Shown: piece by piece, positions 33,322-59,283 of the stretch
Position numbering within the stretch: position 1 is the stretch's first letter
Layout of the letters: every line of letters starts with the position of its first letter
Source of the DNA: an uncultured Candidatus Binatia bacterium
GTDB lineage: Bacteria > Desulfobacterota > Binatia > UBA9968 > JAJDTQ01
Assembly: GCA_965242525.1 (NCBI GenBank)
Contig: OZ251459.1
Coordinates: forward strand, 1,152,001-1,216,000
Length of the DNA stretch: 64,000 bases
Direction: 5' to 3'
The notes under the pieces: generated by a model
Seen by the model: only the letters and a program-made list of their open reading frames with translations
The model's database searches: none
Told to the model about the DNA's origin: nothing
Made by a program: the position numbers and the translations under genes

Positions 33322-34344
33322 ATGGGAAAAATCGACTCGGCCGTGACCGTGATCGACGCGGACGCCCACGCCCGGGACAACGACGACTTCATCCGGCCTT
33401 TCCTGGGCGAATCGTTCCGCAACCGGCGCCCGCCCTTCCTTCCACGGGAGACCTACGACCGCAACCTGGGAGGGACCCTGGGACACGCGGGGATCGAGCA
33501 CGAGGAGCGGTTGGCGGCCATGGACACCCAGGAGATCCACACCGCGGTCATGTACCCCACCAGCGGGCTGGGCATCGGGCGCATCCGGGAGCCGGCCTAC
33601 CAAGTCACCCTGTGCCGGGCCTACAACGAGTTCATCGCCGACTACTGCCAGGCGTCGCCCCGCCTCAAGGCGGTGGCGAACCTGCCGGTGAACGATCCCG
33701 CGGCCGCGGCCCGGGAACTGCGCCGCGCGGTGGTGGACCTGGGCTTGGCTGGGGGCATGCTGGCGGCCCAGGGCCATGGCAAGAACTTCGGCGCCCCCGA
33801 GTACTACCCGCTGTACGAAGAGGCCCAGAAGCTCGGGGCTCCGCTGGCGGTCCACGCCTTCGGCGGCGACGAGCCGGGCAGCGAGATCTTCGACCAGTTC
33901 ATCTCCATCCACACCACCGGCCATCCGTTCCCGGTGCTGCGCCAGCTTACGGGCATGGTCTATGGCGGCATCCCCGAGCTCTTTCCCGACCTGAAGCTCG
34001 GGTTCCTGGAGATCGGCTGCGGCTGGATCCCCTACTGGACCGACCGCATGGACGAGGAATGGGAGAAGCGCGGAGCGGTGGAGGCCCCGGAGTGCAAGCA
34101 GGAGCCCAGCCGCTACATCACCGGCAAGAACTTCTACTACGGCTGCGAGCCCGACGAGAAGACCATCGGGTACGTGGTGGGGGAGATCGGCTCCGAGACC
34201 ATCATGTACGCTTCGGACTACCCCCACTGGGACATGAGCTGGCCCGATTCCGGCTCCCTGATCTGGGGACGGACCGACCTGTCCGCGGAAGCGAAGCGGA
34301 ACATCCTGGGCGACAACGCCCGGCGTTTCTACGGACTCGAATGA
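33322..34344 (+). CDS. Amidohydrolase_2 family metalloenzyme
   Basis: IDAD.H, RAYN, FP.LK.GFLE.G.GW, ASDYPHWD, NA.RFY. Confidence 0.9.
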   Translation: MGKIDSAVTVIDADAHARDNDDFIRPFLGESFRNRRPPFLPRETYDRNLGGTLGHAGIEHEERLAAMDTQEIHTAVMYPTSGLGIGRIREPAYQVTLCRAYNEFIADYCQASPRLKAVANLPVNDPAAAARELRRAVVDLGLAGGMLAAQGHGKNFGAPEYYPLYEEAQKLGAPLAVHAFGGDEPGSEIFDQFISIHTTGHPFPVLRQLTGMVYGGIPELFPDLKLGFLEIGCGWIPYWTDRMDEEWEKRGAVEAPECKQEPSRYITGKNFYYGCEPDEKTIGYVVGEIGSETIMYASDYPHWDMSWPDSGSLIWGRTDLSAEAKRNILGDNARRFYGLE

Positions 34345-34507
34345 CGGGCCGGGCAGGGGGCCGCGCCCGGAAGTTGCGTTCCGTGCGGCTTTGGAGTAAC
34401 TAATGCCCTGCGTCCCCGTGGAGGTATCCCGGGACGCAACGCCAACGGCCGCAACGGACCATTTCAACTACTTCAACGAATACCGACGGATCCAGGGAGT
34501 ACCTTCG

Positions 34508-35257
34508 ATGCCACTTTCCGGCGACGCCTTTGTTCGGGAAATCCAGGAGACGGTCCGCGCCAAGCACTCCAAGGACAACCCGTTGATCGGGATGATCGAG
34601 CGGGGGGAGATCGACCGGGCGGCGCTCAAGGGCTTCGTGGGCCAGTTCTACCTGTTCTTCCCCAAACCCTTTCCCAAGCCCATCGCGGCCATGCTGGGGC
34701 GCTGTCCGGAAGACCCGGAACTGGAGAAGATGTGGATCGAGAACGTGGTGGAGGAGGGCACCGGAGAGATCTCCGGCACCGACAGCCACCGCGGCCTGTT
34801 CATCCGCTTCGCCATGGCCTGCGGCTACGAGTCCAGGGAAGAACTGGACTCGGTGCCGCCGCTGCCGGAGACATCCGCGTTCCTGGACTGGCGGGAGCTG
34901 CTCATGTACCAGCGCTCGTGGCTGGAGCTCTACGCATGCCAGGGTTTCTGCCTGGAAGGGACCGCCAGCGAGCGCATGAGCCGGATCGTGACCGGCCTCA
35001 CGACCCACTACGGCTTCGACCGAGACAGCGAGGAGATCCGCTACTGGACCCTCCACATGGGAGTGGACGAGGAACACATGAAGGTGGGCCCCGAAGCGGT
35101 CCGCAAGTACGCGGTGACCGATCCGCAGCAAGAGCAGGTGCGCCAGGCCGTGCGCAAGACCCTGGACCAGTTCTGGCTGGCGTTCGACGGGGTCAAGCGG
35201 GCCTTCGTGGACCGGGACCCGGTTTACGCGAATTGGCGCAACGGCGCGGGCGCCTGA
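34508..35257 (+). CDS. Heme-oxygenase-like diiron enzyme (CADD/PqqC/TenA superfamily)
   Basis: N..EE...SH..LF.RF, conserved E, W..H...DEEH metal-ligand pattern. Confidence 0.8.
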   Translation: MPLSGDAFVREIQETVRAKHSKDNPLIGMIERGEIDRAALKGFVGQFYLFFPKPFPKPIAAMLGRCPEDPELEKMWIENVVEEGTGEISGTDSHRGLFIRFAMACGYESREELDSVPPLPETSAFLDWRELLMYQRSWLELYACQGFCLEGTASERMSRIVTGLTTHYGFDRDSEEIRYWTLHMGVDEEHMKVGPEAVRKYAVTDPQQEQVRQAVRKTLDQFWLAFDGVKRAFVDRDPVYANWRNGAGA

Positions 35258-36012: not shown

Positions 36013-36978
36013 ATGTTGGCGAGCCCCATCAAGGGAATCATCGGAGCGGCGCTGACCCCGTTCACGGACGACGGGAAGGTGGACTACGACGCCCTGGGAC
36101 GGGAGATCGAGTTCCTGGTGGCGGACTGCGACGCAATATCCGTGGCCGCGGTGGAAGCGTCGGAATACACGGTCCTCTCCCTCCAGGAGCGCAAGGATGT
36201 CATGCGGCGCGCCACCGAGGTGGTCAACAAGCGCGTCCCCGTCATCCTCGGGGCCTCCAGCCACTCCATCGACACCGTACTGGACCTGGCGGACCACGCG
36301 GCCGCGGTGGGGGGGGACCTCATCCAGGTGCTCATGCCCATCCGTCCGTGGGGCGGACAGCCGACCATCGCCGACCTGGTGCAGTTCTTCACCGAAGTGG
36401 CGTCGGTCAGCCCGCTGCCCATCGTGGCCTACCACAACCCCGGCCCGGGCGCGGACCCGCCGCTGGATGCGTTCGTGCGCCTGAGCGAGCTCCACAAGGT
36501 GGACTACTTCAAGGAGAGCTCCCGCGACATCACCAAGATCACGCGCCTCATCGAGCAGATCCAGCTCGCCGGAAAGGCCAACTACTTCACCACCATGCAG
36601 CCGTTGCTGACGACCCTGACCATGGGCGGGGCAGGCGCCACCATGCCCCCTCCGGGCACGCGCATCGGCGCGCGGGTGGTGCGCGCGTTCCGGGAAGGGG
36701 ACATGGACAAGGCGCGCTACTGGCAACGCTGCTTCACCCTCTTTCCGGGAAAGTGGGGCGCCTACGGGTTGCCGCCGATCATGAAGTCCGCGTTGAAGCA
36801 CTTCGGGGTCGATATCGGCGACCCGTCCCGCCCCTATGCCCCGGTGAGTCCCCGGGACCACGCCCAGATCGGGCAGTTCTTGGGCCAGATCGGCATCCTG
36901 GGCGACGGGGAACCGGACGAGACCGCTTTCGACCGGGCCTCGGTCCAGCTCTCGCAGGACGACACCTTCCTGCGCTAG
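36013..36978 (+). CDS. Dihydrodipicolinate synthase/N-acetylneuraminate lyase family aldolase
   Basis: A.LTPF..DG.VD, YHNP, Schiff-base KESS; GTTGE replaced by VEASE. Confidence 0.85.
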   Translation: MLASPIKGIIGAALTPFTDDGKVDYDALGREIEFLVADCDAISVAAVEASEYTVLSLQERKDVMRRATEVVNKRVPVILGASSHSIDTVLDLADHAAAVGGDLIQVLMPIRPWGGQPTIADLVQFFTEVASVSPLPIVAYHNPGPGADPPLDAFVRLSELHKVDYFKESSRDITKITRLIEQIQLAGKANYFTTMQPLLTTLTMGGAGATMPPPGTRIGARVVRAFREGDMDKARYWQRCFTLFPGKWGAYGLPPIMKSALKHFGVDIGDPSRPYAPVSPRDHAQIGQFLGQIGILGDGEPDETAFDRASVQLSQDDTFLR

Positions 36979-37233: not shown

Positions 37234-38391
37234 ATGCATTACCACAACGGACGGAAGCAGATCGTCGTGCTCGGCGGCGGCAGCGGGGGAGTGGTGGCCG
37301 CCACCAAGCTCGGCCGCGCCCTGGGCGCGGACCACGACGTGACGCTCATCGACCGCCGGGCCGACCACGTGTTCATGCCCGCCTTCCTCTTCCTGATGGT
37401 GGGGCAGCGCCGGCCCGAGGACATCACCCGGAAGCTGAAGCGCCTGGAGAAACGCAACATCCGGGTGCTGCAGGCGGAGATCCTCGGGATCGACCCGGGC
37501 TCCCGGCAGGTCGTACTCGAAAGCACCGCCATCCCCTACGACTACCTCGTGGTCTCCCTGGGCCTGGAGGTGAGGCCCGACCTCCTTCCCGGCTTCGCCG
37601 AAGGCGCCCAGCACGCCTGGGAAATGGACGCCGCCCTGCGTCTCAAGGGGAACCTCGACGTGTTCCGGGAAGGGCGCGTGGCGGTGGGGATACCGCAGGG
37701 CCCGTACCGCTGTCCGCCGGCGCCTTACGAAGCGCAATGGATGCTGGACAGCTACTTCAAGGAACGCAACGTCCGGGACCTGGTGGACCTCCACTACTTC
37801 ACCCGGGAACCCGAGCCGGCCGGCGAGGAGCACATGCCCTCCGTGTGGATGGACGCCCAGAGCAGGAAGCGCCGGGTCACCATCCATTACGACTTCGTGG
37901 CCCAGTCCATCGACCCCGACCGGCAGCGCGTGCTGGGCCTCTACGGCTACGAGATCTCCTACGACCTGCTGCTCATGGTGCCCCCGCACCGGCCGGCCAG
38001 GGTGCTCTACGACTGCGGGCTCGCCGAGACCGAGACCGGCGTGCAGGTGGACTTCGACACACTGGAGACCAAGTGGGAGAACGTCTATGCCATCGGCGAC
38101 TGCGCCAACATGCCCGCCTCCAAGGCGGGCGGCGTGGCGCACCAGGAGGCGGACGTGGTGGCGGACAACCTGGTGGCGGAGATCACCGGGGAAGGGGAGT
38201 TATCGACCCTCCACCTCCACACCATATGACTGCTGTCCTGCGGCGCGGGACGCGCCGCCGCCAACCGGACCACCTATCCCCAGGGTTGGCCGCCCTTCGG
38301 CGCCGCGGATTCGCGCTCGTGGGGTCCCTCCCGGGCCATCTACTGGAGCAAGGTCCTGTTCGAGAAATGGTGGCTATGGCGTTATTTCTGA
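37234..38391 (+). CDS. Sulfide:quinone oxidoreductase-like flavoprotein (type III SQR/FCSD family), probable selenoprotein with Sec at codon 332
   Basis: GGGSGG FAD motif, YRCPPAPYE (Cys160), NVYAIGD, KAG; in-frame TGA at 38227-38229, then an open frame encoding LLSCGAGRA...PSRAIYWSKVLFEKWWLWRYF. Confidence 0.85.
38240..38258 (+). promoter_or_regulatory. Candidate bacterial SECIS hairpin
   Basis: GCGGCGCG-GGA-CGCGCCGC perfect 8 bp stem starting 10 nt after the in-frame TGA, G-rich apical loop. Confidence 0.7.
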
Positions 38392-38448
38392 CAGGGGACG
38401 GGCGGCGCCTCCCCGCGGGGCGCGCCCGCGGTCCATCCTGAGACGGTC

Positions 38449-39498
38449 ATGATCCTGCGCGAGCTCAACGGCGGAAGCTGCAAGACCTACCTGGTGGCGG
38501 ACGAGGGCAGGGGACGCGCGGTGCTCGTGGACCCGCTGTACGCCAACGTGGACCGGTACCTGGCGCTGCTGGGCTACCACCGGCTCACCCTGGACCTGGT
38601 CATCGACACCCATACCCACGCCGACCACCTGAGCGGATGCGCCCAGTTGCGGTTCCTGGTGGGCGCGCCCTTCGCCATGCAGAAATGGGCCCCCAGCCCC
38701 GCGGTGGACCGGCACCTGGAGGACGGCGAGGGTCTCGCCGTGGGGGAGCTGGAGGTGCGCGTGCTCCACACCCCCGGCCATACCCCCGACGGCATGAGCC
38801 TGGTGGTGGCGGGCAACGTGCTCACCGGCGACACCCTCTTCATCGGCGGCTCCGGGCGCACCGACTTCCCCGGAGGGGACGCCGGCGCCCAGTTCGACTC
38901 CATCACCCAAAAGCTGTTCACGCTGCCGGACGAGACCGCGGTCCACCCGGGCCATGACTACCGGGGCGCCGCCGGCTCCACCATCGGCCGGGAAAAGCGC
39001 GCCAACCCCCGCCTGGCCAACCGCACCCGGGAGGACTACGTGGAGCTCATGGACAACCTCCGGCTCGCGCCGCCCCAGAACATCCAGGAGGTCCTCCAGC
39101 CCAACCAGTCGGCCCTGGGAAGCGACCAGGTCAACTTCCCGGACTGGAGCGAGCTCAAGAAGGTGAGGGAAGTGGACGTGGAGGGCCTCGACCTCATGCG
39201 GAGGTCGGACTCGCCGCCGCTGGTGGTGGACGTGCGCGAGCCCGCGGAGTACACGGGGGAGCTCGGCCACCTTCCGGGCAGCGTCCTGATCCCCCTCCGG
39301 GAGCTGATGAACCGCCTCGACGAGATCGAGGGGCACAGGAGCGGCCCGGTGGTGACCGTCTGCCGCGCCGGGATGCGCAGCGCCACGGCCGCGGCCATCC
39401 TCGGCAGGCTCGGCTTCACCGACGTCTCCAACCTGGCGGGGGGGATGCTCGGGTGGCGCCGCGCCGGCCTGCCCGTGGAGCCTCAGCTCGACCCGTGA
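38449..39498 (+). CDS. Persulfide dioxygenase (ETHE1-like MBL fold) fused to C-terminal rhodanese
   Basis: DTHTHADHLSG, TPGHT, TGDTLFIGG.GRTD, PGHDY, STIG.EK..NPR; rhodanese DVRE..E...GHLPGS and CRAGMRS. Confidence 0.92.
   Translation: MILRELNGGSCKTYLVADEGRGRAVLVDPLYANVDRYLALLGYHRLTLDLVIDTHTHADHLSGCAQLRFLVGAPFAMQKWAPSPAVDRHLEDGEGLAVGELEVRVLHTPGHTPDGMSLVVAGNVLTGDTLFIGGSGRTDFPGGDAGAQFDSITQKLFTLPDETAVHPGHDYRGAAGSTIGREKRANPRLANRTREDYVELMDNLRLAPPQNIQEVLQPNQSALGSDQVNFPDWSELKKVREVDVEGLDLMRRSDSPPLVVDVREPAEYTGELGHLPGSVLIPLRELMNRLDEIEGHRSGPVVTVCRAGMRSATAAAILGRLGFTDVSNLAGGMLGWRRAGLPVEPQLDP

Positions 39499-57494: not shown

Positions 57495-59283
<1,789 letters not shown>

What the first reader, a model, noticed from the sequence alone, without database searches (positions are those of the whole stretch)
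37234..38391. Probable selenocysteine-containing sulfide:quinone oxidoreductase
Seen: the called ORF stops at TGA 38227-38229 after 331 aa, but the frame stays open for 53 more codons encoding LLSCGAGRA...PSRAIYWSKVLFEKWWLWRYF. A perfect 8 bp hairpin with a GGA loop begins 10 nt after the TGA. Known: SQRs use two redox cysteines, one in the CPxAPYE motif (here Cys160) and one near the C-terminus before a GxGxA turn and the amphipathic KxxFEKxW helix; bacterial SECIS elements lie directly 3' of the UGA. Inference: the TGA takes the place of the second catalytic Cys, giving a Cys/Sec active site (U332, in a UxxxC context). Gene callers would truncate this protein. I cannot check whether this family has already been reported as a selenoprotein.
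Basis: partly seen in the sequence, partly recalled or inferred. Interest (0 to 1): 0.93.

Follow-up and report, generated by a model that had tools for sequence, protein, structure and literature searches.

The report
Selenocysteine sulfide:quinone reductase homologue in Binatia
This gene encodes a sulfide-oxidising flavoenzyme whose second catalytic cysteine is replaced by selenocysteine; the same replacement was reported in 2025 for a distant branch of this enzyme family, so this is a further, still mis-annotated lineage rather than a new kind of protein.

Summary

**The gene.** The ORF at 37234 stops at TGA 38227-38229. The frame then runs 53 more codons to TGA 38389-38391.

**Conservation.**
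- All 94 distinct orthologous loci examined have TGA, never TAA or TAG, at this codon. They are 61-97% identical, and most record titles read Candidatus Binatia.
- The real terminator varies among TAG, TGA and TAA.
- The 53-codon tail is under purifying selection (mean pN 0.08, pS 0.51).

**The codon's position.** It sits in the column of the family's second redox Cys. That column is Cys in 111 of 135 aligned relatives, including a 68%-identical Cys form.

**SECIS-like hairpin.** A hairpin lies 10 nt downstream of the TGA. Its three four-fold synonymous sites are the three most conserved of 38 such sites.

**Sec machinery.** The genome has selA, selB, tRNA-Sec and a selD that itself carries the canonical in-frame TGA.

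**Novelty.** The kind is already known:
- It was predicted by deep-Sep (mSystems 2025).
- In NF049943 members the Sec falls in the same column as here.

This protein is only about 30% identical to them. It scores 252 bits against a 525-bit cut-off, forms a separate clade and has a differently placed hairpin. In databases it is called as a 331-aa truncation.

**Verdict:** a real selenoprotein, and a new member of a known kind.

The parts
37234..38226 (+). First 331 codons of the SQR-family flavoprotein: FAD-binding Rossmann start VVLGGGSGG and the first redox Cys160 in YRCPPAPYE.
   Evidence: Pfam Pyr_redox_2 at 4e-21 and FCSD_central at 8e-8. PDB sequence matches to SQR and FCSD. Foldseek best match is human SQOR, TMq 0.71.
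37711..37713 (+). Codon TGT for Cys160, the first redox cysteine.
   Evidence: Invariant in alignment A1. Cys in 126 of 135 aligned family members. Aligned to the Cys of 'vkCagapq' in human SQOR.
38227..38229 (+). In-frame TGA read as selenocysteine (U332), in the motif H-T-I-U.
   Evidence: TGA in 92 of 92 distinct sequences; searches show the same. The column is Cys in 111 of 135 relatives. It is the same column as the Sec of NF049943 members.
38230..38388 (+). Last 53 codons of the same protein, including the predicted C-terminal helix (residues 367-384, 38332-38385).
   Evidence: Always 53 codons long and conserved as protein. Mean pN 0.084 against pS 0.51. No separate ORF of at least 40 aa is called there. 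Helix 367-384 in the AlphaFold model, at low confidence.
38240..38258 (+). SECIS-like hairpin. The conserved 6-bp core is 38241-38246 paired with 38252-38257. The loop is GGA, or N-G-G-N-C in relatives.
   Evidence: Four-fold sites +17, +26 and +29 have 0.15, 0.00 and 0.30 bits of entropy. The 35 other four-fold sites have mean 1.53 and minimum 0.79 bits.
38389..38391 (+). True terminator (TGA in this genome).
   Evidence: The terminal stop varies across 92 distinct orthologous sequences: TAG 36, TGA 33, TAA 23.
38449..39498 (+). Downstream gene on the same strand, 57 nt after the stop: a metallo-beta-lactamase-fold plus rhodanese fusion, likely a persulfide dioxygenase/sulfurtransferase.
   Evidence: Pfam Lactamase_B at 4e-17 and Rhodanese at 8e-17. 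Best NCBIfam match is the bifunctional sulfur transferase/dioxygenase Blh at 113 bits, below its 625-bit cut-off. Directly downstream in 25 of 26 same-genus genomes and 0 of 24 in other genera.

Best explanation
One gene, 37234-38391 on the + strand, encodes a 385-residue flavoprotein of the sulfide:quinone reductase / flavocytochrome c sulfide dehydrogenase family.

**How the TGA is read (inferred).**
- UGA at codon 332 is decoded as selenocysteine by the cell's SelA, SelB, SelD and tRNA-Sec system.
- SelB is probably recruited by a hairpin that starts 10-11 nt after the UGA.
- That hairpin lies within the coding sequence for the (C)GAGRAA segment.

**What Sec332 does (inferred from the family).**
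- It takes the place of the second redox cysteine and works opposite Cys160 next to the FAD.
- The active site is therefore a Cys/Sec pair instead of Cys/Cys.
- By analogy with characterised SQRs, sulfide is oxidised to a protein-bound persulfide or polysulfide on this pair. Electrons pass through FAD to membrane quinone.
- The C-terminal helix would hold the enzyme on the membrane.
- In this genus the downstream dioxygenase-rhodanese fusion would process the sulfane sulfur further.

**Shown here:** the conserved TGA, the translated tail, the Cys-column correspondence, the hairpin constraint, the Sec machinery and the SQR fold.

**Inferred only:** actual selenium incorporation, sulfide as substrate, quinone as acceptor, and any catalytic advantage of Sec.
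For: **1. The TGA is fixed.**
- 53 of 61 related genomes have a match (14 of 14 genera, 3 families).
- All 53 matches that cover codon 332 contain exactly one TGA and run on to residue 385.
- 50 of 50 fetched loci have TGA at the same codon followed by exactly 53 codons.
- 80 of 80 loci from the species-genome scan have it too.
- All 92 distinct sequences have TGA, while the terminator is TAG 36, TGA 33, TAA 23.

**2. The tail is translated.**
- Mean pN is 0.084 against pS 0.51 downstream, versus 0.115 against 0.48 for the 100 codons upstream.

**3. The codon matches the catalytic Cys.**
- Alignment with human SQOR.
- Cys in 111 of 135 relatives.
- P0006 has ...LHTIC LLAFEPGKAA....

**4. The hairpin is constrained at the RNA level.**
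- The three four-fold sites in the stem are the three lowest-entropy sites of 38.
- Their only variants are C-to-T changes, which keep G-U pairs.
- The Cys form P0006 has F-E-P where the 5' arm would be. Those codons cannot spell the arm (my inference).

**5. The Sec machinery is complete.**
- selB 371 bits, selA 577 bits, selD 383 bits, all over their cut-offs and clustered together.
- selD itself reads KAAG-TGA-AAKLG.
- tRNA-Sec with anticodon TCA.

**6. Positive control from the known family.**
- Curated Sec-SQR genes (NF049943) have their TGA in the same column.
- 5 of 5 Sec forms have a hairpin after the TGA; 0 of 7 Cys forms do.

**7. Fold and family.**
Against: - There is no experimental evidence of selenium incorporation or of enzyme activity. 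Every organism involved is an uncultured metagenome-assembled genome.
- Rfam has no SECIS match here.
- The stem shows no compensatory double changes because it is invariant, so the support is synonymous-site conservation rather than covariation.
- The fold energy of the region is not exceptional (z = -0.65).
- The AlphaFold model is poor exactly around U332 (pLDDT below 50 for residues 328-367). The spatial closeness of U332 to Cys160 and FAD therefore rests on homology, not on the model.
- The dioxygenase-rhodanese neighbour is conserved only within the genus.
- The quinone acceptor is untested.
Confidence: 0.92

Rival explanations
1. The TGA is a real stop. The product is a 331-residue protein, and the conserved downstream stretch is a separate small gene or a regulatory RNA.
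For: Gene callers give this product: 117 of the 120 best hits end there. Open frames are common in this GC-rich DNA, and all three frames of the tail are open.
Against: - The tail is under protein-level purifying selection in the frame of the upstream gene.
- It is always exactly 53 codons long.
- No separate ORF is listed there.
- It is contiguous with the upstream part in the Cys form P0006 and in 120 full-length relatives.
- A 331-residue product would lack the second redox Cys and the C-terminal helix.
- The codon is always TGA, while true terminators vary.
Confidence: 0.03
2. The UGA is read through, but as Cys or Trp by near-cognate suppression or another recoding route, not as selenocysteine.
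For: Sequence alone cannot tell which residue is inserted. UGA followed by C is a leaky context (recalled, not tested here).
Against: - The Sec pathway is complete, and selD itself has the canonical Sec codon.
- The hairpin at the spacing expected of a bacterial SECIS is conserved at synonymous sites.
- The aligned residue in relatives is Cys, the usual counterpart of Sec.
- The gene's own terminator here is also TGA, so TGA is not a general sense codon.
Confidence: 0.03
3. The protein is a selenoprotein of the SQR fold, but its physiological reaction is not sulfide:quinone oxidoreduction. It could be, for example, a persulfide or polysulfide reductase, or it could donate to an acceptor other than quinone.
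For: - The protein is only about 30% identical to NF049943 members and 21-27% to solved SQR and FCSD structures.
- It lies on a long stem branch of 1.05.
- The sulfur-gene neighbour is conserved only within the genus.
- The C-terminal region is modelled poorly.
Against: - The best structural and sequence matches are all SQR or FCSD.
- Both redox positions are kept.
- Neither this gene nor its two neighbours has a CxxCH haem motif, which argues against an FCSD-type cytochrome partner.
- JGI names relatives sulfide:quinone oxidoreductase, though that is an automatic annotation.
Confidence: 0.2
4. The gene is a pseudogene or carries an assembly error at this codon.
For: A single in-frame stop is what a fresh nonsense mutation looks like.
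Against: The same TGA is present in 92 distinct sequences spanning 61-97% identity, from many independent assemblies. Selection on both halves is intact.
Confidence: 0.01

Closest known systems
[quoted passage not shown] It is listed with motif HxxU in the review PMC13188914 (Table 1 text read).
   Same: - Same protein family; it is the best NCBIfam hit, at 1e-74.
- Same HxxU motif.
- The Sec falls in the same alignment column, the second redox Cys.
- Cys forms exist alongside Sec forms.
- The Sec forms have a hairpin with a GG-starting loop downstream of the UGA.
   Different: - The score is 251.8 bits against the 525-bit cut-off.
- Identity is 29-33%.
- This protein is shorter (385 against about 405 residues), and its segment after the Sec is different.
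- Its hairpin lies about 7 nt closer to the UGA and is spelled by a non-homologous peptide: GAGRAA here, EKGSLL there.
- The two Sec groups are separate clades with Cys lineages between them.
- A tree holding all Sec rows together is rejected.
Human mitochondrial SQOR (PDB 6oi5, 6oi6, 8dhk) and bacterial SQRs of Acidithiobacillus ferrooxidans and Aquifex aeolicus
   Same: - Same fold: Foldseek TMq 0.68-0.72.
- FAD-binding N-terminus.
- Both redox positions align.
   Different: - Those enzymes have Cys at both redox positions.
- Sequence identity is 20-26%.
- The residue numbers Cys201 and Cys379 for human SQOR are recalled, not taken from a call.
Flavocytochrome c sulfide dehydrogenase flavoprotein subunit (PDB 1fcd, 3vrd, 5n1t)
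   Same: Pfam FCSD_central matches. Sequence and structure matches are of similar strength to those for SQR.
   Different: - Neither this gene nor its two neighbours has a CxxCH motif.
I did not test that likeness against a reference.

Membership tests
Bacterial selenoprotein gene (SelB/SECIS-dependent UGA recoding) | An in-frame UGA conserved among orthologues, with conserved coding sequence on both sides. | tested here: met
   TGA in 92 of 92 distinct sequences. The tail has pN 0.084 against pS 0.51.
Bacterial selenoprotein gene (SelB/SECIS-dependent UGA recoding) | Homologues carry Cys at the aligned position. | tested here: met
   Cys in 111 of 135 aligned relatives. P0006, at 68% identity, has Cys.
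Bacterial selenoprotein gene (SelB/SECIS-dependent UGA recoding) | A stem-loop directly 3' of the UGA with G early in the apical loop. The consensus spacing of 16-37 nt from the UGA to the loop is recalled from the bSECISearch description and comes from no call. | tested here: met
   The conserved 6-8 bp stem occupies +13/14 to +30/31, and the loop starts 17-18 nt after the UGA with an invariant GG. Stem synonymous sites are nearly frozen. There is no Rfam match, and bSECISearch was not available.
Bacterial selenoprotein gene (SelB/SECIS-dependent UGA recoding) | The genome encodes SelA, SelB, SelD and tRNA-Sec. | tested here: met
Bacterial selenoprotein gene (SelB/SECIS-dependent UGA recoding) | Selenium is actually incorporated at the UGA. 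| not testable with these tools
   This needs 75Se labelling or mass spectrometry.
SQR / FCSD flavoprotein family | Two-dinucleotide-binding-domain flavoprotein fold with an N-terminal FAD motif. | tested here: met
   Pfam Pyr_redox_2 at 4e-21 and FCSD_central at 8e-8. The best Foldseek matches are SQOR, SQR and FCSD at TMq 0.67-0.72. The model's mean pLDDT is only 71.8.
SQR / FCSD flavoprotein family | A pair of redox cysteines: the first in the CPxAP-type motif, the second near the C-terminus. | tested here: met
   Cys160 is invariant and is Cys in 126 of 135 relatives. The second position is U332, Cys in 111 of 135 relatives.
SQR / FCSD flavoprotein family | Sulfide-dependent reduction of quinone. 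| not testable with these tools
   This needs an enzyme assay.
SQR / FCSD flavoprotein family | A C-terminal amphipathic membrane-binding helix (SQR rather than FCSD). | tested here: inconclusive
   A helix is predicted at residues 367-384, but block pLDDT is about 59 and residues 328-367 are below 50.
NCBIfam NF049943 (SQR_III_seleno) | Score at or above the curated cut-off of 525 bits. | tested here: not met
   251.8 bits and 246.2 bits on the genome. True members score 596-673 bits.
NCBIfam NF049943 (SQR_III_seleno) | Sec in an HxxU motif at the second redox Cys. | tested here: met
   H-T-I-U here against H-A-T-U in members, in the same column. The motif is as listed in PMC13188914.
Type III SQR (structure-based SQR classification) | Placement with reference type III enzymes in a tree of all SQR types. 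| not tested
   No named type I-VI reference set was available. The only pointer is that the nearest curated model bears the type III name.

The most novel reading that the evidence does not exclude
The Binatia enzyme is a second, independent origin of a selenocysteine-dependent SQR.

- It has its own SECIS, which has overwritten the turn after the catalytic residue: GAGRAA here, where the Cys form has FEPGKAA.
- The Sec form is fixed across an order-level radiation (94 distinct loci, with Cys and Asn forms as rare secondary reversions).
- It is the only SQR-family gene found in this genome with the queries used.
- Sulfide oxidation or detoxification in this widespread, uncultured lineage would then depend on selenium supply.
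- The enzyme is invisible to current annotation, which truncates it.
Probability: 0.5. Interest if true: 0.55.

Novelty: new member of a known kind. Interest (0 to 1): 0.42.

Why it matters
**Annotation.**
- Automatic annotation cuts this protein at residue 331. That removes its catalytic Sec and its membrane helix.
- 117 of the 120 nearest database entries are truncated this way.
- Sulfur-cycle inventories of Binatia genomes therefore contain a crippled SQR call.
- The curated selenoprotein model NF049943 does not rescue these entries: 252 bits against a 525-bit cut-off. A second model, or a lower cut-off, would fix many entries at once.

**Biology.**
- Two separate SQR lineages have replaced the same redox Cys by Sec. 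This gives a natural pair of experiments on what selenium does for sulfide oxidation.
- It also links selenium supply to sulfide handling in a widespread uncultured group.

Tried and rejected
**Rfam.** A search of 38100-38500 at E up to 10 gave five chance-level hits and no SECIS family.

**Single-sequence folding.** It gave no signal beyond shuffles.

**Structure model.** I built an AlphaFold model from a 25-sequence alignment to see whether U332 sits next to Cys160 and FAD. Residues 328-367 came out below pLDDT 50, so I used the model only for overall fold.

**Search for NF049943 members.** The genome-contig scan with alignment A1 was meant also to reach them. Its patterns were too specific, so it returned only the window's own clade. 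Members were found instead by a phylum-wide family search.

**AU test.**
- On the 84-row tree with the mixture model it did not finish in three calls.
- I repeated it on 35 of the 84 rows with LG+G4. Those rows were chosen by me after seeing the first tree.
- In the 84-row tree one row, NF_L163, was wrongly labelled Sec. My script had included a TGA upstream of its start. The row has Cys at the site, and the group counts printed for NFsec and NFcys are off by that one row.

**Rows dropped (3 of 130 loci).**
- L059 and L113 are the same genome. Their motif reads IHTI, so my pattern missed them. Searches show their TGA.
- L145 is cut by its contig end.

**Synteny.** It is not a family-wide feature: 0 of 24 genomes outside the genus have the dioxygenase-rhodanese gene directly downstream.

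**Literature.**
- 'selenoprotein' + 'sulfide quinone' + 'selenocysteine': 18 papers; only the review PMC13188914 was relevant.
- 'deep-Sep' + 'selenoprotein': 5 papers.
- 'Binatia' + 'selenocysteine': 0 papers.
- 'Binatota', 'Desulfobacterota_B', 'selenoprotein', 'selenoproteome' (any two): none of the 10 listed held Binatota.
- The BSepDB paper PMC13326102 has no occurrence of sulfide, quinone, Binat or NF049943 in its main text.
- Supplementary tables were closed, for example Table S2 of the deep-Sep paper. They may list further organisms.
- I therefore found no report of the Binatia clade, but I cannot exclude one in a supplement or in a subscription journal.

**Not used.** The look-up of sequencing runs, read laying, complex prediction, the protein-atlas search and the metagenome-contig scan.
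Full report
**1. Observation**

- An ATG at 37234 opens a frame of 331 codons that reaches TGA at 38227-38229.
- The same frame continues for 53 sense codons to TGA at 38389-38391.
- A perfect 8-bp hairpin (38240-38247 paired with 38251-38258, loop GGA) starts 10 nt after the first TGA.

Taken alone, neither feature is remarkable in this GC-rich DNA.
- The other two frames of the 159-nt tail are also free of stops.
- The local fold is no better than shuffled sequence: z = -0.65, and 51 of 200 shuffles fold as well.

The case rests on comparison with relatives.

**2. What the protein is**

With the TGA read through, the 385-residue product belongs to the SQR/FCSD flavoprotein family.
- Pfam Pyr_redox_2 matches at 4e-21 and FCSD_central at 8e-8.
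- The best solved-structure matches by sequence are human SQOR (4e-29) and flavocytochrome c sulfide dehydrogenases. Archaeal and bacterial SQRs follow.
- An AlphaFold model has mean pLDDT 71.8 and is poor at residues 328-367.
- Its best Foldseek matches are human SQOR (TMq 0.71-0.72), then FCSD and the SQRs of A. ferrooxidans and Aquifex.
- In the phmmer alignment, Cys160 (YRCPPAPYE) pairs with the first redox Cys of human SQOR. Codon 332 pairs with the Cys of 'ytsCplvtg'.

**3. The TGA is conserved and the tail is translated**

Related genomes:
- 53 of 61 related genomes have a match. These cover 14 of 14 genera in three families of one order. The 8 genomes without a match are 76-100% complete.
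- All 53 matches that cover codon 332 contain exactly one TGA and continue to residue 385.
- Two further rows are N-terminal fragments without a stop.

Fetched loci:
- I fetched 50 loci from 50 genomes. All have TGA at the same codon, followed by exactly 53 codons of conserved peptide.
- A scan of one genome per species returned 80 more loci, 36 of them duplicates of the first set. All have the TGA.

Pooled analysis:
- 127 of 130 loci were analysed. L059 and L113 were dropped because my motif pattern missed them, and L145 because it is cut by its contig end.
- There are 92 distinct sequences and all read TGA.
- The real terminator is TAG in 36, TGA in 33 and TAA in 23.

Selection on the tail, measured against the window's copy:
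- Mean pN is 0.084 and pS 0.51.
- The 100 codons upstream give 0.115 and 0.48.
- The tail is therefore selected as protein at least as strongly as the body.

In protein databases, 117 of the 120 best hits end at the codon before the TGA. The other three are:
- P0006, 385 aa, with Cys at the site.
- P0011, 383 aa, with Asn at the site.
- P0007, whose tail comes from a different frame.

**4. The codon stands for the catalytic Cys**

- I aligned 120 full-length cluster representatives together with the window's protein, P0006, P0011 and 12 NF049943 loci, 135 rows in all.
- The column of U332 is Cys in 111 rows and an in-frame TGA in 6.
- The column of Cys160 is Cys in 126 rows.
Residue 336 is C, Y, F, L or V.

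**5. The hairpin**

- Across 50 orthologues the core stem is invariant or nearly so (+14 to +19 CGGCGC with +25 to +30 GCGCCG).
- The closing pair +20/+24 and the outer pair +13/+31 form in only some sequences.
- The loop always contains GG.

The stem does not vary, so no compensatory changes can be counted. I tested synonymous sites instead.
- There are 38 four-fold degenerate sites between -150 and +165.
- The three that lie in the stem have entropies of 0.15, 0.00 and 0.30 bits.
- The other 35 have mean 1.53 and minimum 0.79 bits.
- The four-fold sites in the loop (+20, +23) and just outside the stem (+32, +35) vary freely.
- The only stem variants are C to T, which keep G-U pairs.

This is selection on RNA structure. 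The position matches the published bacterial SECIS consensus as I recall it: the loop begins 17-18 nt after the UGA and has G at its start. Rfam has no match.

The Cys form P0006 has F-E-P where the 5' arm lies. Those codons cannot spell the arm (my inference).

**6. Sec machinery**

- The genome encodes selB (371 bits), selA (577 bits) and selD (383 bits). All are over their cut-offs and they are clustered together.
- It has a tRNA-Sec with anticodon TCA.
- selD itself reads KAAG-TGA-AAKLG and is followed by a 9-bp hairpin with loop GUC.
- Sec decoding is therefore in use in this cell.

**7. Comparison with what is known**

Published and curated record:
[quoted passage not shown] It scores 251.8 bits against a cut-off of 525.
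- A 2026 review lists this family with motif HxxU and one Sec, citing the deep-Sep paper (PMC13188914, Table 1 text).
[quoted passage not shown] It notes both TGA-containing and Cys-containing homologues (PMC12013277, Table 3 and section 7).
- A Sec form of this enzyme family is therefore already in print and in NCBI's annotation rules.

True members found here:
- I searched 301 genomes of the tool's 'same phylum' group.
- 18 genomes have matches over the cut-off, giving 20 matches. 7 of these have one TGA and 13 have none.
- Two genomes carry one copy of each form.

How they compare with the window's protein:
- Their Sec lies in 'DGHATU MVVTGYEKG', in the same alignment column as U332.
- They are only 29-33% identical to it.
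- 5 of 5 Sec forms have an 8-bp hairpin with loop GGUC starting 20 nt from the U of UGA. 0 of 7 Cys forms have it.
- That hairpin lies at a different distance from the UGA and is spelled by a different peptide from the one here.

**8. Two separate Sec lineages**

Family-wide search:
- The window's clade is represented by P0122 (330 aa, truncated, 58% identity) and several fragments.
- The next full-length relatives are at most 40% identical.

84-row tree (quick search, SH-aLRT support):
- The Binatia sequences form one clade with support 100 on a long stem. It holds 10 Sec forms plus P0006 (Cys) and P0011 (Asn) nested inside.
- The NF049943 sequences lie inside a different 31-row clade, also with support 100. 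The remaining rows of that clade have Cys at the site, apart from one with Ala.

AU test:
- I used a reduced set of 35 rows that I chose after seeing the first tree.
- The best tree holding all nine Sec rows together is worse by 553 log-likelihood units (p-AU 2e-73).
- The same catalytic Cys has therefore been exchanged for Sec at least twice in this family, or Sec has been lost many times.
- The differently placed hairpins favour two gains.

**9. Organism and context**

- Most record titles of the related loci read 'Candidatus Binatia bacterium'. Others carry Deltaproteobacteria, Thermodesulfobacteriota or Syntrophobacter-type labels. A few carry Chloroflexota, Acidobacteriota or Verrucomicrobiia labels. 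All are metagenome-assembled genomes.
- A gene for a metallo-beta-lactamase-fold plus rhodanese fusion begins 57 nt after the true stop, on the same strand.
- Its best NCBIfam match is the sulfur transferase/dioxygenase Blh, below cut-off.
- It lies directly downstream in 25 of 26 same-genus genomes and in 0 of 24 genomes of other genera.
- This fits a sulfide-to-persulfide-to-sulfite/thiosulfate route in this genus, but it is not a family-wide link.
- Neither the SQR gene nor its two neighbours has a CxxCH motif.
- With the NF049943 profile, no second SQR-like gene above 22 bits was found in this genome.

**10. Verdict**

It is a selenocysteine-containing SQR-family enzyme that gene callers truncate.

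It is not a new kind of selenoprotein, because the same substitution was published in 2025 and is curated as NF049943. What is new:
- This is a separate lineage, largely of Binatia, about 30% identical to the known one.
- It has its own hairpin.
- It falls below the curated model's cut-off and is truncated in 117 of the 120 nearest database entries.
- I found no report of it (searches; supplements closed).

Selenium incorporation, the substrate and the electron acceptor remain inferences.

Noticed in passing
G000:C1:3604834-3609122 (outside the window; loci L001, L008, L009): selD, selB and selA lie next to one another on the minus strand. selD is itself a selenoprotein gene (KAAG-TGA-AAKLG) with a 9-bp hairpin and GUC loop after the TGA.
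   Followed up: partly
L152-L163 (genomes G332 and G359): Two genomes carry both a Cys copy and a Sec copy of the true NF049943 SQR. The Sec copies have a CGAGAAGG-GGUC-CCUUCUCG hairpin that the Cys copies lack.
   Followed up: partly
L087 (MAG record JBOHVJ010000252.1): This 72%-identical orthologue has an extra TAG at codon 91 in addition to the conserved TGA. It could be a pseudogene or an assembly error.
   Followed up: no
P0007 (398 aa): This database protein follows the SQR sequence to about residue 305. It then continues in another frame through the TGA region, which looks like a frameshift in that contig.
   Followed up: no
P0011 (383 aa): This full-length member is nested in the Binatia clade. 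It has Asn at the Sec/Cys position and a changed CPPALYE motif, so it may be a catalytically altered paralogue.
   Followed up: no
window 58581-59270, minus strand (L005): A translation-GTPase-like gene matches the selB profile weakly (65.7 bits, below the cut-off). It is presumably another translation factor, not SelB.
   Followed up: no
window 34403-35257 and 33322-34344, plus strand: Upstream genes match Pfam Haem_oxygenas_2 (iron-containing redox enzyme) and Amidohydro_2. A DHDPS-family gene lies at 36013-36978. None has an evident link to sulfur metabolism.
   Followed up: no
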